Shown here piece after piece: positions 6,001-30,381 of a DNA stretch of 64,000 nt (its first letter is position 1; every line of letters begins with the position of its first letter). The stretch is from assembly GCF_003790525.1 (NCBI RefSeq), contig NZ_CP033635.1. One strand, written 5' to 3'. Origin of the DNA: Escherichia coli (GTDB lineage Bacteria > Pseudomonadota > Gammaproteobacteria > Enterobacterales > Enterobacteriaceae). The notes beneath the pieces were generated by a model, which saw only the letters and a list, made by a program, of their open reading frames with translations, did not search any database and had not been told where the DNA came from. The position numbers were made by a program, and so were the translations under genes.

Positions 6001-7684
6001 GCATCCGGCCGGCGTCAGCGTAACATTGACGTCATCCGCACAGGATGACGCCAGAACCACCAGCAATGGCGGCCGTCCCAGCGCGTCAGCGAAAAAAGGT
6101 AACTCAATACCGATTGTGGTAACGGTAAAAGATCGTGATGGCAACCCGTTGGCGGGCGAAGCGGTGACGCTCAAACGTGATTCAGCGTTGAGCCGTTCAG
6201 GAACAATCGTGGGGACGCCAGCGAATGAAATAAAGTTGACGGAACTGACGCCCGTGTCGGCGACATTCCCGCTGGTTTCAAATGGTACACAATGGCTTGG
6301 TTTCACCGGTAGCGATGGTACGGCGACATTCAATGTTGAACAGCCTGATACTGTCGGCCTGGCAATCCCCTTTAACGCCATCCTGGCCCGTGACACGGCA
6401 AAGGTATCTACTCTGGATCTGATTTTTACCGTCCTCACCAGCCCGGATGCCGCATTAGCAACTTACTGGGGCCATATGCCGGATACCGTCACGGCGGAAA
6501 ACGGTGCTGTCTTTGAGCGCCCTAAACTGTGGAAAGAGCTGCCGTCGACATCCGGGGTAAGTCAGATAACGAATAGCAATGAAGCCTGGCCAGTGTTTAA
6601 CGCAACGCAGAGGGCTGACAGCAATCTCAGCCCTTGTGAAGCGGCGCGTCGACCATTGAGCGATGATTTAGAAGCGCTCTATACACGTTATCCAGGAAAC
6701 ACGATTACCGCGCAAATTGGCTGGCCTACGCAGTATGCATGGTGGGCGGTGGATAACTGGGAAGGGGGCAGTAATCCGCAGGCCGTCAGCCTGGTAAATG
6801 GTTCGAGAGGCCAATATAATCCCGCTCATCAGGCCTGCCTGGTTAACCCGCGTGCGAGCGTTTCCAGCGTCACGCTGACATCAACGGCGCTGGATGACGC
6901 CACACAGGCGGCGACGGTGAAAAAAGGCGACGCCGCGCCCATTGTCGTTACCGTAAAAGACAGCGCCGGGAAGCCGGTGCCGAATATCGCTTTTATCCTA
7001 AAACGCGGTGAGGCCGTGCCGCGTAACAGCGGGGCGACGCTGTATGGCGATGTGGATGCGATGGACGATTTGACTGTGCAACCTTCATCCGGTGCGGCAG
7101 TCACGTTGGCTGACAGTGGAAATACCATCGACGGAGTCACGGGAGCGGACGGTACGGCAAGCTTTACCGTTCGTCAGGATAATACGCCAGGATATAAAAC
7201 GCCGTTGACGGTGACGCTGACGGATAACGCCACCATAACGGCGACGCTGGACACGATTTTCACCGTGCCGACCAGCCCGAATGTCGCCACGGCGTATTTC
7301 TGGGGTCATATGGCGGATACCGCCACGGTAAGTGGCAAGACGCTGCATCGCCCGCTATTAAAATCGGAGTTGCCGTCAGGCGCTACCGCAGCAGCAACGC
7401 CTGATGTAAATAATGAAACCTGGGCACTGGCGCATGTTATGGATTCCTCTAAATGGGATGTCGCGCAGCAGTGTGGCAGTATGAATAACGTGCCGAGCAG
7501 TGCCGAATTACAAACATTACACTCCGGCTTTAGCACATTGGGATGGCCGTCCTCGATAAGCTTCCCGTATTTATCTACTGATAAGGCTGGGTCGTTCTAT
7601 TGTGGTGTTGATGAAGGCTCTGGCAGTCTCAACTGTGGCATTCAGCCTGCGAAAACGCCGGGGTTTGCAACCTGCTTCCAGTAA
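1..7684 (+). CDS. giant surface adhesin, 5'-truncated by window edge; tandem Big_1-like (invasin/intimin-type) repeats; RatA/RatB/SinH-like
   Basis: Reading frame is open from position 2 to stop at 7684 (ORF track starts at a GTG at 65). About 9 repeats of ~280 aa each end in a TSPD-x5-WGHM motif (e.g. [35 protein letters not shown]). Lies next to xseA, where such adhesin loci occur in enterobacteria. Confidence 0.6.
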
Positions 7685-10801: not shown

Positions 10802-12379
10802 ATGACGGAAAACATTCATAAGCATAGCATCCTCATTCTGGACTTCGGTTCCCAGTATACTCAACTGGTTGCGCGCCGCGTGCGTGAGCTGGGCGTTTAC
10901 TGCGAACTGTGGGCGTGGGATGTGACAGAAGCACAAATTCGTGACTTCAATCCAAGCGGCATTATTCTTTCCGGCGGCCCGGAAAGCACCACCGAAGAAA
11001 ACAGCCCGCGTGCGCCGCAGTATGTCTTTGAAGCAGGCGTACCGGTATTCGGCGTTTGCTATGGCATGCAGACCATGGCGATGCAGTTGGGTGGTCACGT
11101 TGAAGCCTCTAACGAACGTGAATTTGGCTACGCGCAGGTTGAAGTCGTAAACGACAGCGCACTAGTTCGCGGTATCGAAGATGCGCTGACCGCAGACGGT
11201 AAACCTCTGCTCGATGTCTGGATGAGCCACGGCGATAAAGTTACCGCTATCCCGTCCGACTTCGTCACCGTAGCCAGCACCGAAAGCTGCCCGTTTGCCA
11301 TTATGGCTAACGAAGAAAAACGCTTCTATGGCGTACAGTTCCACCCGGAAGTGACTCACACCCGCCAGGGTATGCGCATGCTGGAGCGTTTTGTGCGTGA
11401 TATCTGCCAGTGTGAAGCCCTGTGGACGCCAGCGAAAATTATCGACGATGCTGTAGCCCGTATCCGCGAGCAGGTAGGCGACGATAAAGTCATCCTCGGC
11501 CTCTCTGGTGGCGTGGATTCCTCCGTGACCGCAATGCTGCTGCACCGCGCTATCGGTAAAAATCTGACTTGCGTATTCGTCGATAACGGCCTGCTGCGTC
11601 TCAACGAAGCAGAGCAGGTTCTGGATATGTTTGGCGATCACTTTGGTCTGAACATTGTTCACGTTCCGGCAGAAGATCGCTTCCTGTCAGCGTTGGCCGG
11701 CGAAAACGATCCGGAAGCAAAACGTAAAATCATCGGGCGCGTTTTCGTTGAAGTATTCGATGAAGAAGCACTGAAACTGGAAGACGTGAAGTGGCTGGCG
11801 CAGGGCACTATCTACCCTGACGTTATTGAATCTGCCGCATCTGCAACCGGTAAAGCACACGTCATCAAATCTCACCACAACGTGGGCGGCCTGCCGAAAG
11901 AGATGAAGATGGGCCTGGTTGAACCGCTGAAAGAGCTGTTCAAAGACGAAGTGCGTAAGATTGGTCTGGAGCTGGGCCTGCCGTACGACATGCTGTACCG
12001 TCACCCGTTCCCGGGACCAGGCCTTGGCGTTCGTGTTCTGGGTGAAGTGAAGAAAGAGTATTGTGACCTGCTGCGCCGTGCTGACGCCATCTTCATTGAA
12101 GAACTGCGTAAAGCGGACCTGTACGACAAAGTCAGCCAGGCGTTCACCGTCTTCCTGCCGGTACGTTCCGTTGGCGTAATGGGCGATGGTCGTAAGTATG
12201 ACTGGGTTGTCTCTCTGCGTGCTGTCGAAACCATCGACTTTATGACCGCACACTGGGCGCATCTGCCGTACGATTTCCTCGGTCGCGTTTCCAACCGCAT
12301 TATCAATGAAGTGAACGGTATTTCCCGCGTGGTGTATGACATCAGCGGCAAGCCGCCAGCTACCATTGAGTGGGAATGA
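10802..12379 (+). CDS. guaA: GMP synthase (glutamine-hydrolysing)
   Basis: 525-aa translation [40 protein letters not shown]... ends IEWE; immediately downstream of guaB. Confidence 0.95.
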
Positions 12380-12452: not shown

Positions 12453-12514
12453 GTTTTTATGTATTCATTTCTATTCACTCTACACCATATTTTTTGGCGG
12501 TACAGGTGACGGTA

Positions 12515-12529
12515 TTACCTTAAAGGTAT
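12515..12529. promoter_or_regulatory. TTACC-N5-GGTAA palindromic operator-like site (TTACC TTAAA GGTAT), upstream of int
   Basis: Core palindrome TACCTTAAAGGTA; one of ~14 related sites in the prophage. Confidence 0.45.
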
Positions 12530-12571
12530 ACTCTCATACCGTCATGAAAATGGTTTCTATACGGGTGAATT

Positions 12572-17536: not shown

Positions 17537-17551
17537 TTACCGTTGAGGTAA
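17537..17551. promoter_or_regulatory. TTACC-N5-GGTAA operator-like site (perfect), leftward early promoter region
   Basis: TTACC GTTGA GGTAA. Confidence 0.5.
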
Positions 17552-17670: not shown

Positions 17671-18255
17671 TTATTGTTTGTTTTTTTCGTTCTGGTTGAT
17701 GACAAATTCAATGTAACTTTCGATCTTTGCTTTCTCGGTTTCGGGTAACAATGCGTAGCGCGAGCGATCATAGTTGATGGTCGCAGGGTCATGCGGATGA
17801 ATCAGTAGTTCATATCCGTGACGCCCGAATGCAGATGCAACATTCTCCAGGGTGGAAATGGAAACGCTGACCTCATTGTTTAACAGGCGGCTTATTGTCA
17901 CCTGGGCGACGCCGGATGCGCGGTGAAGTTTTCCCTGAGTTGAAAGGTCGCGGCTTTCACTCATCCAGCGTTCCAGGTTGTGAGCCGCCAGCTGACCTAT
18001 ATCACTCGGGCCGACAGGCTGAAAACCCTCCTGAGAAAGCGAGCGATCAATATCAAGCCAGTTACGGGGTTTATTGGCGGCAGCTTCAATTTTTCGCGCA
18101 ACCTGGTCGCCGATAACCTTCTTGCCAAGAGCCCAGCGGTTTACCAGATTTGCCTGAGTTCCAAGTTTTTCTGCCATCCGCGTCTGAACACCATTGAATT
18201 CACGGTCGATCAAGTCGTTGAGATTTTGCCTGCGGACGTCCTGGATACTTTTCAT
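17671..18255 (-). CDS. putative immunity repressor with two HTH regions, no S24 peptidase domain
   Basis: 194 aa; HTH-like segments TRMAEKLGTQANLVNRWALG and ASGVAQVTISRLLNNEVSVSISTLENVASAF; divergent from cro-like gene across an operator cluster. Confidence 0.6.
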   Translation of the reverse strand: MKSIQDVRRQNLNDLIDREFNGVQTRMAEKLGTQANLVNRWALGKKVIGDQVARKIEAAANKPRNWLDIDRSLSQEGFQPVGPSDIGQLAAHNLERWMSESRDLSTQGKLHRASGVAQVTISRLLNNEVSVSISTLENVASAFGRHGYELLIHPHDPATINYDRSRYALLPETEKAKIESYIEFVINQNEKNKQ

Positions 18256-24882: not shown

Positions 24883-25479
24883 ATGATGCCTGCTGAACCT
24901 AAAACCTATAAACGCAAATCAACGCAATTTAAGCCGCTCACAGCAATGCAGGAGGCTTATTGCCAGTCATACATCAAAACGCCTGAAAACCAGACTCAGG
25001 CAGCGATTAACGCAGGATTCTCCCCAAATACAGCGGCAGTTAAAGCCAGTGTCATGATGCGCGATGAACGCATTCAAAAACGGATTGCCGAGTTGATGGA
25101 GGAGCGCAACAAACGAATGCGCGTCAGTGCTGATTACGTTCTCATGCGCCTGGTGGAGATCGACCAGATGGACGTGATCGATATCCTCAACGACGATGGG
25201 AGCCTTAAACCAATCCGTGAGTGGCCGAAAATCTGGCGCACTACGCTTAGTGGCTTTGATCTGTCATCGACCATCATGAACATGAACGAGGATTCGATAG
25301 AGACAATCCTCAAAAAAATTAAATGGCCTGACAAGGTGAAGAACCTCGAACTGATTGGTAAGCACGTCGACGTTAACGCGTTCAAAGAACGTCTGGATGT
25401 TAATGTGAATGTGACAATTGCTGATCGCATAGCAGCAGCCAGGAAGCGACTCAAAGAACGTCAGGATGGTAATCAGTGA
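24883..25479 (+). CDS. terminase small subunit
   Basis: Start MMPAEPKTYKRKSTQFKPLTAMQEAYCQSYIKT...; directly precedes terminase large subunit. Confidence 0.6.
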   Translation: MMPAEPKTYKRKSTQFKPLTAMQEAYCQSYIKTPENQTQAAINAGFSPNTAAVKASVMMRDERIQKRIAELMEERNKRMRVSADYVLMRLVEIDQMDVIDILNDDGSLKPIREWPKIWRTTLSGFDLSSTIMNMNEDSIETILKKIKWPDKVKNLELIGKHVDVNAFKERLDVNVNVTIADRIAAARKRLKERQDGNQ

Positions 25480-26950
25480 CAGATACAGCGTTATCTCCTG
25501 AAGAGCAGTTGATCGAGGATATTGCAGGGTTCACTCACGATCCGCTTGGCTATGCCCTCTATGCGTTCCCGTGGGGGAAGAGGGTACTGAACTGGCACAT
25601 GCCACCGGCCCACGTCAGTGGCAGGCTGATGCGTTCCGAGAGATACGTGATCACCTGCAGAATCCAGAGACGCGCTATCAGCCGCTTATGCTGGCACGCG
25701 CTTCTGGTCACGGTATTGGTAAATCCGCATTCATCTCAATGCTGATCAACTGGGGCATGTCCACTTGCGAGGATTGTAAGGTCGTGGTGACCGCCAACAC
25801 CGACAACCAGCTACGAACTAAGACCTGGCCGGAAATTATCAAGTGGTCGAACCTTGCTATCACGAAAGACTGGTTTACCTGTACCGCTACCGCGATGTAC
25901 AGCAATGATCCTGGGCACGACAAGCGGTGGCGAGCTGACGCAATCCCTTGGTCTGAGCACAACACTGAGGCATTCGCCGGACTACACAACGAGCGTAAAC
26001 GCATCATCGTGGTATTTGATGAAGCGTCGAACATTGCGGATCTGGTGTGGGAAGTTGCCGAGGGTGCGCTAACGGACGAAGACACTGAGATTATCTGGGT
26101 GGCGTTCGGAAACCCTACACGTAACACCGGACGTTTCCGCGAATGTTTCCGCAAATATAAACACCGCTGGAAAACTGCGCAGATTGACAGCCGAACGGTG
26201 GAAGGCACTAACAAACAGCAGTTGCAGAAATGGGTTGATGACTACGGGGAAGACAGCGACTTCGTTAAAATCCGTGTGCGCGGCATATTCCCTGATGCAT
26301 CTGAATTGCAGTTTATCCCTACCGGTCTTACTGATGAGGCAATGAAACGGGTGGTGACCGCTGCGCAGGTGGCGCATGCTCCGGTGATAATCGGTGTTGA
26401 CCCGGCATATTCAGGCGTTGATGACGCGGTGATATACCTGCGGCAGGGGCTACACAGTAAGGTGCTGTGGACTGGCAACAAGACTACCGACGATCTGATT
26501 ATGGCGAAGCGTATCGCTGACTTTGAAGACCAGTATCAGGCTGACGCGGTGTTCATCGACTTCGGTTACGGAACCGGTTTGAAGTCAATCGGTGATGGCT
26601 GGGGACGTACATGGCAACTTGTTCCGTTCGGTGGCGCGTCTACTGACCCGCAGATGCTCAACAAGCGTGGGGAGATGTTCAACTCATGCAAGACATGGCT
26701 GAGGCTCGGCGGCATGCTGGATGACCAGGAAACTGCAGACGACCTGTCGGCGGCAGAGTACAAAGTTCGTGTGGACGGTAAAATCGTTATCGAACCGAAG
26801 GAAGATATCAAAGAGCGGCTTGGGCGTTCGCCTGGTAAAGGCGATGCGCTACTGCTGACGTTTGCTTTCCCGGTGTCAAAGCGCCTGCGACTTCCCGGGC
26901 AGCAGAACCAGCAAGGCAAGGCGCTTACCGAGTACGATCCATATGCTTAG
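25476..26950 (+). CDS. terminase large subunit; frame changes (-1) in a G5 run at 25573-25577, so either frameshifted or it starts at GTG 25571
   Basis: Walker A ASGHGIGKS in frame of 25571-26950; upstream 32 codons (GTG 25476, overlapping terS stop, SD AGGA) are in the other frame. Confidence 0.7.
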
Positions 26951-27765
26951 TCTTTATTTTTATCCTCGAAACCTGATAATCCAGATAGAACACCAAAGTT
27001 ATTAAAAACGTTTGGCTTACCAGATTTTAATCCGGATAAGTTGTGTTGCTCCAAAAAGTTACTAATTGTTTGGCCGTTGCCAAGTGCAAGGCTTTTTATT
27101 TGAGATTTTTCAGGGTATTTGAGTTTGTATTCGTCGAAATCATTTTGGAGGGTCTTATATGCCTCATTCATTCTTCCAAGAGTTTCCGATATCTCTTTTA
27201 ATGAATGATTTAGAGCTGCTAACTGAGCACTGGCGGATCTCAATTCGTCATCTTTAGCTTTCAACTCGGCAGTCAATTCACCCATACTATTCTTTGATCG
27301 AATAATCTCTTCTTTCATCTCTTGGATGTCTTTTTCCGCGCCAGTCTTAACTTTGTCGTATGTAACATCTTTTTTAGCCAATAACCTCTGCAGTCTTGTT
27401 TCACGCTGGATTTTTCTTGCCTTCAGGTGATTTTCGATTGAGTCATTATTATCAAGAGGCTTTGCTTGCCATACGTTAATGATATTGTTTACCCATGGTA
27501 ATAGGCAGCAGATAGCAATTACAGATAAGCATGGATAAAACATAACAGTTTTCCATGTGCTGTTATCTGAGATATATGAAATTTTATCTATTATGTTTGA
27601 TTTGCTAAAAAATAGATAAAGAATTGATTTCCAGTTGAAGGCGCACCAGGACATAACAAAAGCACCAAGCACAGGGTTTTTGGCTCGATTCACGGCAGTA
27701 TTGGCAGTAGATAAAAACAGCTCTTTGAACGATTCAAACATGCTAATTACCTTGAAGTTTTTCAT
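26947..27765 (-). CDS. membrane-anchored coiled-coil protein, antisense to the packaging/structural genes (candidate accessory or exclusion protein)
   Basis: Start MKNFKVISMFESFKE; two hydrophobic segments then long coiled-coil; AT-rich; own upstream palindromic motif. Confidence 0.5.
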   Translation of the reverse strand: MKNFKVISMFESFKELFLSTANTAVNRAKNPVLGAFVMSWCAFNWKSILYLFFSKSNIIDKISYISDNSTWKTVMFYPCLSVIAICCLLPWVNNIINVWQAKPLDNNDSIENHLKARKIQRETRLQRLLAKKDVTYDKVKTGAEKDIQEMKEEIIRSKNSMGELTAELKAKDDELRSASAQLAALNHSLKEISETLGRMNEAYKTLQNDFDEYKLKYPEKSQIKSLALGNGQTISNFLEQHNLSGLKSGKPNVFNNFGVLSGLSGFEDKNKD

Positions 27766-27769
27766 GATT

Positions 27770-27784
27770 ATACCTTTAAGGTAA
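27770..27784. promoter_or_regulatory. TTACC-N5-GGTAA-like site (ATACC TTTAA GGTAA) immediately upstream of minus-strand membrane protein gene
   Basis: Core palindrome TACCTTTAAGGTA. Confidence 0.45.
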
Positions 27785-27901
27785 TTTGCGGTCATCAAGC
27801 AAAAAAATGCCCGGCGAACCGGGCGAACTGGAAGCAATGAGTTATGCCTTCCGTGGCTGTACGGGTTTACAGCATGAAGTCATCGCAATGGCGTCCTGCT
27901 G

Positions 27902-27944
27902 TAAAAAGGGCGGTGATAGTCCTTCAAGGGAAACCATCACCGCC
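27902..27944 (-). terminator. rho-independent terminator downstream of tRNA-Arg
   Basis: ggcggtgat...atcaccgcc hairpin followed by T6 on minus strand. Confidence 0.55.
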
Positions 27945-27987: not shown

Positions 27988-28064
27988 TGGCGCGGCATGC
28001 AGGATTCGAACCTGCGACCAACCGCTTAGAAGGCGGTTGCTCTGTCCAACTGAGCTAATGCCAC
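27988..28064 (-). tRNA. tRNA-Arg (anticodon UCU), phage-encoded
   Basis: 77-nt cloverleaf folded by hand: acceptor GUGGCAU/AUGCCGC, D-stem GCUC/GAGC, anticodon stem ACCGC/GCGGU with loop CUUCUAA, T-arm GCAGG-UUCGAAU-CCUGC, encoded CCA. Confidence 0.85.
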
Positions 28065-28386
28065 AACGCTGAGAGCACTTAGCCTGTTAAGGCACCACAC
28101 TTTGTCGCGGCTCCATAAATGCTCTCATCGTTGCACCCTCGTCTCTTCCGAGGTGTCACACCGAATCGCCGGGATGGTGAATCCCCGTGCGCGGAATAAA
28201 ACCGCTCGACTTGCACATTCCGGCTACCTGGTTCGTTTGCCCGAGCAAGGGAGGGTGCCCCTTAAACGTATCCAGACCGCTATCGGCGCATGTGCCATAC
28301 ACCGTACTGCTCAAAATAAAAGCTCACCCCACCTGTTCAATTTAACGACAAGCCAGTCAGGTTAATAACCGGAATGAACTCTTTGC

Positions 28387-28701: not shown

Positions 28702-30381
28702 ATGGCGGAAACAACTAAAGAGCGATTGAACAAACAGTTCGCACAACTTGAAAGCGAGCGTCAGTCGTTCGAGCCGCACTGGCGCGAGTTGAGTGATTAC
28801 ATCAACCCGCGTGGTTCCCGCTTTCTGACTTCTGAGGTCAACCGTAACGATCGACGCAATACACGCATTATTGATTCGACCGGGACTATGGCGGCGCGCA
28901 CTCTCGCCAGCGGCATGATGTCAGGCATCACAAGCCCCGCGCGTCCGTGGTTTCGCCTGGCTACGCCAGATCCTGAAATGATGGATTATGGCCCTGTTAA
29001 GTTGTGGCTTGAGGCGGTGCAGAACCGCATGAACGATATGTTCAATAAGTCGAATCTCTACCAGTCTCTTCCGCAGTTATACGGAAGCCTCGGCACATAC
29101 AGCACTGGTGCAATGGCGGTGCTGGAGGATGACGAGGACATCATTCGCACAATGCCATTCCCGATAGGCAGTTACTACCTGGCTAACTCACCTCGTGGCA
29201 GTGTGGACACCTGTTTTCGCAAGTTCTCTATGACTGTTCGTCAGCTTGTTCAGGAGTTCGGGCTAAATAACGTCAGCGAATCCGTAAAAAGCATGTGGGA
29301 AAGCGGCACCTACGAGAAGTGGATTGAAGTGATGCATTCGGTTTACCCGAACATTGACCGCGATACATCGAAGCTGGATAGCAAGAACAAGCCATTCAAA
29401 TCGGTTTATTACGAGGTTGGTGGCGATAACGACAAGTTGTTGCGTGAGTCCGGATTCGATGAGTTTCCAATTATGGCTCCGCGCTGGGAAGTTAACGGCG
29501 AAGATGTTTATGGATCATCATGCCCGGGTATGCTGGCGCTTGGACCTGTTAAGGCATTGCAGCTTCTCCAGAAGCGCAAGTCGCAGTTGATTGATAAAGC
29601 CACCAATCCGCCGATGGTTGCTCCGACTTCCCTCAAGAATCAGCGCGCCTCCCTTCTTCCTGGCGACATAACGTATATCGATCAGATTACTGGTCAGGAT
29701 GGTTTCAGGCCTGCTTATCTGGTTAACCCCAGTACAGCAGATCTGGTAGCAGACATTCAGGACACCCGCCAAATCATTAACAGCGCCTACTTTGTCGATC
29801 TGTTCATGATGTTGCAGAACATCAATACCCGCTCGATGCCTGTTGAAGCGGTGATCGAAATGAAAGAAGAAAAACTTCTGATGTTGGGGCCGGTTCTGGA
29901 GCGTCTGAACGACGAATGTCTTAATCCTCTCATTGACCGCGCTTTCTCGATGATGGTGCGTAAAAACATGCTGCCGCCACCGCCTGACGCGATGGAAGGT
30001 ATGCCCCTGAAGGTCGAATACATTTCTGTCATGGCTCAGGCGCAGAAGTCTATCGGCCTGTCCAGTCTGGCGTCTACGGTCAACTTCATTGGTCAACTTG
30101 CGCAAGCGAAACCAGAAGCTCTCGACAAACTCAATGTTGATCAGGCGATCGATGCATTCGCTGATATGTCCGGAGTGTCTCCAACCGTCATTGTTCCGCA
30201 GGAACAGGTTGAGCAGGCTCGCCAGCAACGGGCACAGCAGCAACAGCAGCAACAAATGATGGCGATGGGAATGGCGGCGGCACAGGGCGCCAAGACGCTA
30301 AGCGAAGCTAAAACTTCGGATCCGAGTGTTTTGTCAGCTATGGCGAATGCAGTTAGTGGTCAGGGTGGGCAATCACAATGA
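28702..30381 (+). CDS. portal protein
   Basis: 559 aa; position after terminase, before scaffold and capsid; size typical for portal. Confidence 0.65.
   Translation: MAETTKERLNKQFAQLESERQSFEPHWRELSDYINPRGSRFLTSEVNRNDRRNTRIIDSTGTMAARTLASGMMSGITSPARPWFRLATPDPEMMDYGPVKLWLEAVQNRMNDMFNKSNLYQSLPQLYGSLGTYSTGAMAVLEDDEDIIRTMPFPIGSYYLANSPRGSVDTCFRKFSMTVRQLVQEFGLNNVSESVKSMWESGTYEKWIEVMHSVYPNIDRDTSKLDSKNKPFKSVYYEVGGDNDKLLRESGFDEFPIMAPRWEVNGEDVYGSSCPGMLALGPVKALQLLQKRKSQLIDKATNPPMVAPTSLKNQRASLLPGDITYIDQITGQDGFRPAYLVNPSTADLVADIQDTRQIINSAYFVDLFMMLQNINTRSMPVEAVIEMKEEKLLMLGPVLERLNDECLNPLIDRAFSMMVRKNMLPPPPDAMEGMPLKVEYISVMAQAQKSIGLSSLASTVNFIGQLAQAKPEALDKLNVDQAIDAFADMSGVSPTVIVPQEQVEQARQQRAQQQQQQQMMAMGMAAAQGAKTLSEAKTSDPSVLSAMANAVSGQGGQSQ

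What the first reader, a model, noticed from the sequence alone, without database searches (positions are those of the whole stretch)
26947..27784. Antisense membrane/coiled-coil gene wedged between terminase and portal, next to a phage tRNA
A 272-aa minus-strand ORF has two N-terminal hydrophobic segments and a long coiled-coil. It is strongly AT-rich, starts just downstream of a TACCTTTAAGGTA palindrome, and its stop overlaps the terminase stop convergently. It is the only opposite-strand gene inside the packaging/structural block, as expected for lysogen-expressed cargo such as superinfection exclusion or abortive infection.
Basis: partly seen in the sequence, partly recalled or inferred. 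Interest (0 to 1): 0.55.

Follow-up and report, generated by a model that had tools for sequence, protein, structure and literature searches.

The report
Repressor-gated membrane coiled-coil phage cargo gene
A real but uncharacterised accessory gene, sitting in a swap-prone slot of an epsilon15/phiV10-type E. coli prophage, encodes a membrane-anchored coiled-coil protein; its promoter carries the phage repressor's own binding site, so it is probably off in the resting prophage rather than on.

Summary
The minus-strand ORF, its AT-richness (36% vs 54% GC), two hydrophobic segments, coiled coil, convergent overlapping stops and the palindrome are all present. Every homologue starts at Met9, so the product is 264 aa (26947-27741), not 272.

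The window is a phiV10/epsilon15-type (Uetakevirus) prophage at guaA. The gene fills a one-gene, always-antisense slot between the large terminase and tRNA-Arg. Relatives hold unrelated genes there.

The cassette has also moved into lambdoid prophages and other elements, sometimes next to candidate defence genes. More distant family members occur in phage-plasmids and Vibrio filamentous phages.

The protein belongs to a large family (PHROG 4780 and relatives). It has no Pfam, PADLOC, PDB-sequence or fold match. The N-terminal membrane domain is conserved and the C-terminal modules are shuffled.

There are 14 core copies in the window against about 1 expected. It overlaps the spacer and -10 of the gene's own conserved promoter.

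"Cargo" is therefore supported. "Lysogen-expressed" is doubtful in this phage, and the function is unproven. My best guess is a repressor-gated inner-membrane protein acting in conflict between phages. Interest is moderate to low.

The parts
26947..27741 (-). Coding sequence of the accessory protein, 264 aa plus stop. It has a membrane hairpin (about residues 23-46 and 61-93), a conserved juxtamembrane helix, a coiled coil (about 115-222) and a variable Gly/Asn/Lys-rich tail.
   Evidence: ORF. Start at Met9 from alignments A1 and A2. PHROG 4780, E=3e-137. Hydropathy. Heptads. AlphaFold models.
27742..27765 (-). Eight-codon N-terminal extension, present in the 272-aa ORF call and in PGAP annotation. 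Probably not translated.
   Evidence: In 25 of 26 (A1) and nearly all of 87 (A2) aligned homologues the protein starts at Met9. Only the window and L026, of the upstream regions read, carry an upstream in-frame ATG. This ATG lies 2 nt downstream of the -10 hexamer.
27750..27753 (-). Shine-Dalgarno AAGG, 8 nt upstream of ATG 27741.
   Evidence: Read from the sequence. Purine-rich SD-like sequences lie a comparable distance upstream of the start in the other contexts.
27767..27795 (-). The cassette's own sigma-70-type promoter: -35 ATGACC (27795-27790), 17-nt spacer, -10 TATAAT (27772-27767).
   Evidence: Consensus scan, 10 of 12 matches. The TGAC core, the spacing and TA(T/G/C)AAT are conserved upstream of homologues in seven further genomic contexts.
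27769..27785 (.). Rep-type operator copy, ATTACCTTAAAGGTATA on the minus strand. Its core palindrome TACCTTTAAGGTA (27771-27783) overlaps the spacer and the -10 hexamer.
   Evidence: 14 TACC-N5-GGTA sites against 1.07 expected. Same consensus as the seven annotated epsilon15 repressor sites. The integrase promoter at 12514-12530 has the same arrangement.
27801..27824 (-). Intrinsic terminator (GCCCGGTTCGCCGGGC followed by a T-run). It closes the upstream minus-strand tRNA unit and forms the conserved left border of the swap slot.
   Evidence: Terminator scan. Annotated as a terminator at the equivalent position in epsilon15. Homology with phiV10 resumes at 27801.
26953..27800 (.). The exchanged cassette (848 bp). 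PhiV10 has 476 unrelated bp carrying p03 at this place.
   Evidence: blastn breakpoints. Slot contents in other prophages.
27988..28064 (-). tRNA-Arg(UCU). It is a backbone gene of the same minus-strand stretch, not part of the cassette.
   Evidence: ARAGORN and Rfam. It is also present in phiV10, which lacks the ORF. The ORF uses AGA for 4 of its 8 Arg codons; the five structural, packaging and repressor genes checked use none.
25476..26950 (+). Large terminase gene, convergent with the ORF, with stop codons overlapping by 2 nt. It is frameshifted in this window at the G-run 25573-25577.
17671..18255 (-). Prophage repressor of the SPC32H Rep type, the predicted regulator of the cassette promoter.
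   Evidence: phmmer against PDB chain 5D50_A, E=4e-42. 42% identical to the epsilon15 repressor. Flanked by operator copies at 17538, 17600 and 18312.

Best explanation
This is a mobile, single-gene accessory cassette of temperate phages. It consists of its own promoter plus a 264-aa protein.

**The protein.**
- It is anchored in the inner membrane by a conserved two-helix N-terminal domain.
- It projects a long, probably cytoplasmic, coiled coil.
- The coiled coil ends in a C-terminal module that is freely exchanged between family members.

**Regulation in its home slot.** In Uetakeviruses (TerL / tRNA-Arg slot) the promoter's spacer and -10 are overlaid by a copy of the prophage repressor's operator. 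The gene is therefore predicted to be shut off in the established lysogen. It would be switched on with the rest of the phage programme, that is, just after infection and after induction.

**Most likely role.** The protein most likely acts at the inner membrane in conflict with other phages or mobile elements, by exclusion or an abortive-type block, with the variable C-terminal module setting the target.

**Shown:** the gene, the start codon, cassette mobility, the domain layout, the identity of the palindrome with the dispersed operator family, and the presence of the matching repressor.

**Inferred:** repression by Rep, membrane topology, and the function.
For: **Real, conserved gene**
- 177 homologues in Enterobacteriaceae; 375 representative clusters at E<1e-10.
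- Start at Met9.

**Cassette and slot**
- Exact swap boundaries against phiV10.
- The slot always holds one antisense gene, of at least three unrelated kinds.
- GC is 36.5% against 54% for TerL.
- In complete E. coli genomes, 52 carry this arrangement, while about 480 records match the flanks at 95% identity or more.

**Mobility**
- The lambdoid phage KO-TP1 carries the cassette together with about 150 nt of TerL 3' end and the upstream terminator remnant.
- The cassette also occurs in a Klebsiella prophage, a lambdoid Citrobacter prophage, a Pluralibacter remnant and the Cronobacter chromosome.
- More distant family members, without this promoter, occur in phage-plasmids and in Vibrio inoviruses.

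**Operator**
- establish its identity; the cognate Rep is present.
- SPC32H Rep is reported to bind palindromic sites as a tetramer and to be disassembled by the antirepressor Ant (PMC9638917).
- The other slot occupants lack both the promoter and the operator.

**Conflict-type signature**
- The N-terminal 160 residues average 79% pairwise identity. Even so, 1080 of 1499 pairs with at least 80% N-terminal identity share no C-terminal similarity.
- The gene lies next to, and on the same strand as, a Septu-like PDC-M62A/B pair in one prophage, and next to a PDC-M40B-like gene in another context.
- It is absent from virulent phages: only 6 of 50,697 phage records match, all temperate or filamentous.
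Against: - There is no expression data and no binding data.
- The operator assignment rests on the depositors' annotation of epsilon15, on statistics and on position. The primary papers could not be read.
- The palindrome is still intact in three contexts where no other operator copy, or only one, is seen nearby (L016, L033, L035). It may therefore also serve as a plain promoter element, and there the gene would be constitutive.
- Retention in prophage remnants and next to defence candidates fits a lysogen-expressed host-protective role better than a lytic-phase role.
- No sequence or fold similarity to any characterised exclusion or defence protein was found.
- Topology is inferred only from charge bias, and the first hydrophobic segment is weak.
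Confidence: 0.45

Rival explanations
1. The gene is expressed in the lysogen and protects the host against other phages, by superinfection exclusion or abortive infection. On this view the operator copy only dampens expression or is irrelevant.
For: - The family is confined to temperate, filamentous and plasmid-like elements and is absent from virulent phages.
- It is retained in a prophage remnant beside guaB/xseA and in an ordinary chromosomal neighbourhood.
- It sits beside candidate defence systems in the same antisense orientation.
- Outside Uetakeviruses no cognate operators are nearby, so the promoter would be constitutive there.
- C-terminal modules are shuffled.
Against: - In this phage the promoter's -10 and spacer are covered by the repressor operator, arranged like the integrase promoter.
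- There is no hit to PADLOC defence models beyond coiled-coil noise.
- There is no relation to SieB (Pfam; hhalign probability 1.8%).
- It was not found in the supplementary tables of one large recent E. coli defence screen, though several of those files are truncated in the copy searched.
Confidence: 0.3
2. It is a helper for the phage's own lytic cycle. Candidates are a membrane tether for replication or packaging (as phi29 p16.7 does), a regulator of lysis timing, or a cell-division inhibitor. It would be dispensable, hence its patchy presence.
For: - Predicted co-derepression with the phage programme.
- The layout of membrane anchor plus coiled coil plus C-terminal module is that of p16.7. 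That comparison rests on my own knowledge, not on a test here.
- Location among packaging genes.
Against: - It is replaced by unrelated small soluble proteins in sister phages.
- It occurs in filamentous phages, lambdoid early regions and non-phage chromosome, where a role specific to podovirus packaging or lysis makes no sense.
- Extreme C-terminal turnover is unusual for a housekeeping helper.
Confidence: 0.15
3. It is a chance ORF, or a decaying passenger with no function.
For: AT-rich DNA tends to give long ORFs. The prophage's terminase is frameshifted in this window, so the element may be decaying.
Against: - There are hundreds of intact homologues at 50-75% identity, with about 50 invariant residues in the N-terminal 160.
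- The promoter and Shine-Dalgarno are conserved.
- The identical protein occurs on 354 contigs.
Confidence: 0.03

Closest known systems
PHROG 4780 (with PHROGs 13369, 35327, 22645, 24478), catalogued phage protein families of unknown function
   Same: Full-length match, E=3e-137. Distant members share the N-terminal motif R19, P23, G26, W32, N36, W37, P70, P82.
   Different: Nothing: it is a member. The families carry no functional annotation, so membership gives the protein a family label but says nothing about function.
SieB of phages lambda and P22 (Pfam PF14163), a prophage inner-membrane protein that aborts superinfecting phages
   Same: A small protein of temperate phages with N-terminal hydrophobic segments and a C-terminal soluble part, encoded as a stand-alone accessory gene. 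The description of SieB rests on my own knowledge.
   Different: No sequence relation (no Pfam hit; hhalign probability 1.8%). SieB has no long coiled coil. SieB is expressed from the prophage, whereas this gene's promoter carries a repressor operator.
phiV10 p03 / epsilon15 gp50 ('Gp49 family', PHROG 322) and the PHROG 4846 proteins, the alternative occupants of the same slot
   Same: Same position, same antisense orientation, one gene per phage, function unknown.
   Different: They are unrelated, shorter (123-140 aa) proteins. They start directly after the terminator T-run, with no promoter and no operator of their own.
Lytic-phase superinfection-exclusion membrane proteins such as T4 Imm and Sp
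   Same: Small inner-membrane proteins made during the phage's own expression programme that exclude later-arriving phages. That is the timing predicted here. This rests on my own knowledge.
   Different: No homology was tested or expected. Those are proteins of a virulent phage, whereas this family is absent from virulent phages.
phi29 p16.7, a membrane-anchored coiled-coil protein that organises phage DNA replication at the membrane
   Same: The layout of membrane anchor, coiled coil and C-terminal functional module, and early expression. This rests on my own knowledge.
   Different: p16.7 has one transmembrane helix and about 130 aa. There is no detectable similarity to any solved structure. 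This family is a swappable accessory gene.

Membership tests
PHROG 4780 superfamily | Significant full-length profile match | tested here: met
   E=3.2e-137 over residues 9-272 of the 272-aa call. Reciprocal profile search finds 375 representative clusters at E<1e-10, with the domain always at the N-terminus.
Moron / accessory cassette of temperate phages | Present in some, and absent from other, otherwise collinear phages, with sharp boundaries | tested here: met
   Boundaries at 26953 and 27800 against phiV10. Alternative occupants are documented.
Moron / accessory cassette of temperate phages | Base composition unlike the surrounding phage genes | tested here: met
   36.5% GC against 54.3% (TerL) and 51.7% (portal).
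Moron / accessory cassette of temperate phages | Own promoter and own terminator | tested here: inconclusive
   A conserved promoter is present. No terminator follows the gene, whose stop overlaps the convergent TerL stop.
Moron / accessory cassette of temperate phages | Transcribed from the repressed prophage | not testable with these tools
   There is no expression data. The operator over the -10 and spacer argues against it in this phage.
SPC32H/epsilon15 Rep regulon | 17-bp ATTACC-N5-GGTAAT-type palindrome | tested here: met
   ATTACCTTAAAGGTATA at 27785..27769. One half-site is perfect; the other reads GGTATA and doubles as the start of the -10. The consensus comes from the seven annotated epsilon15 sites.
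SPC32H/epsilon15 Rep regulon | Cognate repressor encoded by the same prophage | tested here: met
   Window 17671-18255 matches 5D50_A at E=4e-42 and is 42% identical to epsilon15 gp38.
SPC32H/epsilon15 Rep regulon | Rep binds the site and represses the promoter | not testable with these tools
   This needs a gel-shift assay or a reporter assay.
SieB (PF14163) | Sequence or profile similarity to SieB | tested here: not met
   No Pfam hit for the protein or for 25 diverse relatives. hhalign against lambda SieB gives probability 1.8%.
Known or candidate anti-phage defence systems (PADLOC-DB 2.0) | Match to a defence-protein model outside generic coiled-coil regions | tested here: not met
   The only matches are weak hits of the coiled coil to the coiled-coil arms of DndD, JetC, LmuB and similar (E>=2e-5). 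Distant relatives behave the same way.
Virion or assembly component | Conserved across phages that share the same structural module | tested here: not met
   It is absent from phiV10, epsilon15 and most Uetakevirus prophages, which have 94-98% identical flanks.

The most novel reading that the evidence does not exclude
The protein founds an unrecognised class of single-protein, membrane-anchored exclusion or abortive effectors. It would have a conserved two-helix membrane module and a plug-in C-terminal recognition module. The class would be shared by tailed temperate phages, phage-plasmids and filamentous phages. In Uetakeviruses it would be wired directly to the prophage repressor, so that it fires only when the resident phage is itself derepressed or has newly infected.
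Probability: 0.25. Interest if true: 0.6.

Novelty: new member of a known kind. Interest (0 to 1): 0.36.

Why it matters
- **A tractable candidate.** If the function is a conflict function, this is a small, widespread, single-gene system with a natural set of swapped C-terminal modules. That makes it a convenient handle for learning how a membrane-anchored coiled coil recognises and blocks an invader.
- **A caution for genome scans.** An antisense, AT-rich gene inside a structural block is not automatically lysogen-expressed.
- **A correction to annotation.** The public start-codon call of 272 aa should be 264 aa.
- **A defined hotspot.** The work defines a one-gene variable slot in Uetakeviruses, between TerL and tRNA-Arg.

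Tried and rejected
- **Family searches.** Pfam, NCBIfam and PADLOC scans of the protein and of 10-25 distant relatives gave only coiled-coil noise (SMC, JetC, LmuB, DndD, HlyD, TraP at far below cut-off).
- **PDB sequence searches.** Searches with two profiles found nothing.
- **Structure.**
  - The full-length AlphaFold model was poor (pLDDT 65), and Foldseek against the PDB was empty.
- **SieB.** Rejected by hhalign.
- **i-spanin.** Considered because of the membrane anchor plus coiled coil. Rejected for three reasons:
  - the gene is not in the lysis cassette, which in epsilon15 lies elsewhere;
  - the region after the second hydrophobic segment is net positive, 10 K+R against 6 D+E;
  - the family occurs in filamentous phages.
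- **Slot neighbours.** The alternative occupants are all of unknown function, so guilt by association gave nothing.
- **Literature.**
  - No paper mentions the PHROG numbers or the RefSeq accession.
  - The protein is not in the supplementary tables of the DefensePredictor screen; several of those files are truncated in the copy searched.
  - The primary papers on epsilon15 and SPC32H regulation are not held, so the operator consensus could not be checked against experiments.
- **Rfam.** Nothing was found around the gene except the tRNA.
Full report
**What is there**

The window contains a 39.6-kb prophage bounded by the att core ATTGAGTGGGAATGATT at 12365 and 51948, at the 3' end of guaA. This is the attachment core reported for phiV10, epsilon15 and ZX5 (PMC9782041). 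The 4 kb around the finding match phiV10, ZX5 and relatives at 97-98% identity, and epsilon15 at 81%. In every case the middle of the query is missing from the match.

The ORF runs on the minus strand from 27765 (first ATG) or 27837 (TTG) to the stop at 26947-26949. The flanks are as follows:
- The terminase large subunit ends at 26950, so the two stop codons overlap by 2 nt.
- tRNA-Arg(UCU) lies at 27988-28064 on the minus strand.
- The portal gene starts at 28702.

In the packaging/structural block 24805-44882, every other long ORF is on the plus strand.

**The observation**

- GC is 36.5% against 54.3% for TerL.
- Two hydrophobic segments are found. The first is weak (Kyte-Doolittle about 1.1-1.2). 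The second is strong (up to 2.15).
- Heptad periodicity is significant over about residues 115-222. AlphaFold places a single long helix there with pLDDT 85-91.
- The palindrome TACCTTTAAGGTA lies at 27771-27783.

One correction is needed. In alignments of 26 and of 87 homologues, the protein begins at the residue equal to Met9. Only this allele and one close variant (L026) have an in-frame ATG eight codons upstream. That ATG lies 2 nt downstream of the -10 hexamer of the only good promoter match (ATGACC, 17 nt, TATAAT; 27795..27767). It would therefore not be on the transcript. The gene is 26947-27741 and encodes 264 aa, with an AAGG Shine-Dalgarno 8 nt before the start. The 272-aa call also appears in RefSeq annotation of a 99%-identical genome.

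**It is cargo in a one-gene swap slot**

Against phiV10, homology stops at 26952 and resumes at 27801. PhiV10 has 476 unrelated bp with its antisense gene p03 in place of these 848 bp.

Other prophages hold other genes there:
- Epsilon15 has the p03 homologue gp50.
- Some E. coli prophages hold a 139-140-aa protein of PHROG 4846.
- Some hold 246-, 264- or 282-aa members of the present family.

The slot always holds exactly one gene, always antisense, between the TerL stop and a conserved terminator at 27809-27824. Among 5,426 complete E. coli genomes, 52 carry the whole arrangement. About 480 records match the flanks at 95% or more, typically over only about 60% of the query, that is, the flanks without the ORF.

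The other occupants begin directly after the terminator T-run (…TTTTTTTAAGGTGAGATC-ATG). They have no promoter of their own. Only this family brings a promoter.

**The cassette travels**

- *Lambdoid phage KO-TP1 (Klebsiella).* A 67%-identical copy lies antisense between the replication genes and ninB. Its DNA homology to the window runs from 26795 to 27912. It therefore still carries about 150 nt of terminase 3' end and the upstream terminator remnant. This is direct evidence that the copy came from a Uetakevirus-type slot.
- *Other copies with the same upstream flank.* These are:
  - a Klebsiella prophage, between the DnaB region and DUF1367;
  - a lambdoid Citrobacter prophage;
  - a remnant beside guaB/xseA in Pluralibacter;
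  - ordinary chromosomal genes in Cronobacter.
- *More distant members.* They sit antisense in phage-plasmid-like elements and in the accessory regions of three Vibrio filamentous phages. A truncated copy lies on IncFIB Klebsiella plasmids.
- *Virulent phages.* None of 50,697 phage records from a virulent phage matches.

**The protein**

It matches PHROG 4780 at E=3e-137 and, more weakly, PHROGs 13369, 35327 and 22645. All are of unknown function, and distant relatives hit the same set.

A profile of the N-terminal 160 residues finds 375 representative clusters at E<1e-10 among 1.84 billion proteins. The domain is at the N-terminus in nearly all, and total lengths are mostly 200-514 aa.

No Pfam family covers the domain in any of 25 diverse members. 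PADLOC and NCBIfam give only coiled-coil noise. No PDB sequence matches.

Nearly invariant across the superfamily are R19, P23, G26, W32, N36, W37, P70 and P82. That is too much conservation for a passive anchor.

The stretch after the second segment is net positive (10 K+R against 6 D+E in residues 93-130). By the positive-inside rule the coiled coil is probably cytoplasmic. This is inference.

The two halves of the protein evolve very differently:
- The N-terminal 160 residues average 79% pairwise identity.
- Of 1499 pairs that are at least 80% identical there, 1080 share no C-terminal similarity.
- The break comes just after the invariant MGELTAE.

**The palindrome is the phage repressor's operator**

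The epsilon15 RefSeq record annotates seven 'repressor / lysogeny' binding sites. Extracted, they read ATTACC-N5-GGTAAT. The one upstream of gp3/portal is ATTACCTAAAAGGTAAT.

In the window the core TACC-N5-GGTA occurs 14 times against 1.07 expected. With up to two mismatches to the exact palindrome there are 12 matches against 1.5 expected, and none of 100 shuffles reached 12.

The copies sit at regulatory positions:
- 44 nt upstream of int (12516);
- just beyond the 3' end of the repressor gene, towards the leftward early genes (17538, 17600), as in epsilon15;
- between the repressor and the cro-like gene (18312);
- before replication and nin-type genes (18697, 20599, 20661);
- before terS (24852);
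- before gp3/portal (28388);
- in the ant/tailspike region (45817, 46857, 47237).

The prophage's repressor is of the SPC32H Rep type (5D50_A, E=4e-42) and is 42% identical to that of epsilon15. Rep of SPC32H is described as binding palindromic sites as a tetramer and being disassembled by the antirepressor Ant (PMC9638917). Overexpressed ZX5 repressor, stated to be identical in sequence to phiV10's, cut endolysin and holin transcription by over 99.9% (PMC9782041).

At the ORF, the 17-bp site ATTACCTTAAAGGTATA spans roughly -25 to -9 of the promoter, and its last bases are the start of TATAAT. The integrase promoter has the same layout (…GTGACGGTATTACCTTAAAGGTATACT…).

The palindrome is kept in all six Uetakevirus-slot copies examined. 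It is degenerate in KO-TP1 and in the Cronobacter copy. It is still intact in three other displaced copies, where no further operator, or only one, is nearby.

The simplest reading has three parts:
- The cassette evolved in the Uetakevirus slot under Rep control.
- It is silent in the lysogen and on when Rep is absent or inactivated.
- Displaced copies carry the site as a relic and are probably constitutive.

I could not read the primary papers on epsilon15 or SPC32H regulation. The operator assignment therefore rests on annotation, statistics, position and the presence of the matching repressor.

**What it probably does**

No homology gives a function. Several features point to conflict with other mobile elements rather than a housekeeping step of this phage:
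- confinement to temperate, filamentous and plasmid-like elements;
- horizontal movement between unrelated backbones;
- a conserved membrane module with interchangeable C-termini;
- in two contexts, a position beside candidate defence genes on the same strand. These are a Septu-like PDC-M62A/B pair and a PDC-M40B-like gene.

The regulation predicts that, in this phage, the protein acts during establishment and after induction. That is the timing of lytic-phase exclusion proteins.

I put about 0.45 on this combined picture. I put about 0.15 on a dispensable helper of the phage's own cycle. Almost nothing remains for a non-gene.

**Comparison and novelty**

It is a member of PHROG 4780, which has no assigned function. 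It is not a member of SieB, nor of any PADLOC family. It is not a virion component, being absent from sister phages.

In kind it is an accessory cassette of a temperate phage in a variable slot. That is ordinary. Three things are less ordinary:
- it is wired to the repressor;
- its family reaches across tailed phages, phage-plasmids and inoviruses;
- its C-terminal modules are shuffled.

I rate it a new member of a known kind, with moderate-to-low interest.

Noticed in passing
window 25476-26950, G-run at 25573-25577: The large terminase gene is frameshifted. It has five G where phiV10 and E. coli 20AR0300 have six, which splits the 491-aa protein into 89-aa and 459-aa ORFs. This is either a homopolymer sequencing error or a packaging-defective prophage.
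   Followed up: partly
window 28065-28310, minus strand: A conserved unannotated stretch of about 250 nt lies directly 5' of tRNA-Arg. It folds better than shuffles (z=-2.9). A five-sequence alignment shows several compensatory pairs. There is no Rfam match. Relatives lie in a CPS-53-like prophage (between yfdP and ymfK) and in P1-like plasmids (between ban/dnaB and tRNA-Ile). It is a candidate structured RNA.
   Followed up: partly
window 12516, 17538, 17600, 18312, 18697, 20599, 20661, 24852, 27771, 28388, 45817, 46857, 47237: There is a dispersed set of ATTACC-N5-GGTAAT-type palindromes: 14 core copies, including one at 7318 outside the prophage, against about 1 expected. They lie at most promoter regions of the prophage, including int, both sides of the repressor gene, terS and portal. 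This suggests one repressor controls many separate units, as annotated for epsilon15.
   Followed up: yes
window about 20640, 28430 and 47280; epsilon15 upstream of gp3: A second short motif, ATGTGGTT, recurs 30-45 nt from several operator copies that precede plus-strand gene blocks. It may be part of a late promoter or an activator site.
   Followed up: no
window 26947-27741 and 27988-28064: The ORF uses AGA for 4 and AGG for 1 of its 8 arginine codons. TerS, TerL, portal, major capsid and repressor genes use no AGA at all. The neighbouring tRNA-Arg(UCU) reads AGA. The tRNA is also present in phages that lack the ORF.
   Followed up: partly
L035:1222-5828 (Citrobacter lambdoid prophage): A family member lies next to, and on the same antisense strand as, a Septu-like ATPase plus nuclease pair (PADLOC PDC-M62A/B) in the region between the replication genes and ninG. 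This looks like a defence hotspot.
   Followed up: partly
L005:4817-4967 (Klebsiella phage KO-TP1): About 150 nt homologous to the 3' end of a Uetakevirus terminase gene survive downstream of this lambdoid phage's copy of the cassette. This is a footprint of the transfer.
   Followed up: partly
window 27909-27944, minus strand: A 14-bp hairpin followed by a T-run lies between the tRNA and the second terminator. The upstream end of the DNA co-transferred with the cassette in three other phages falls at 27905-27915, right beside it.
   Followed up: no
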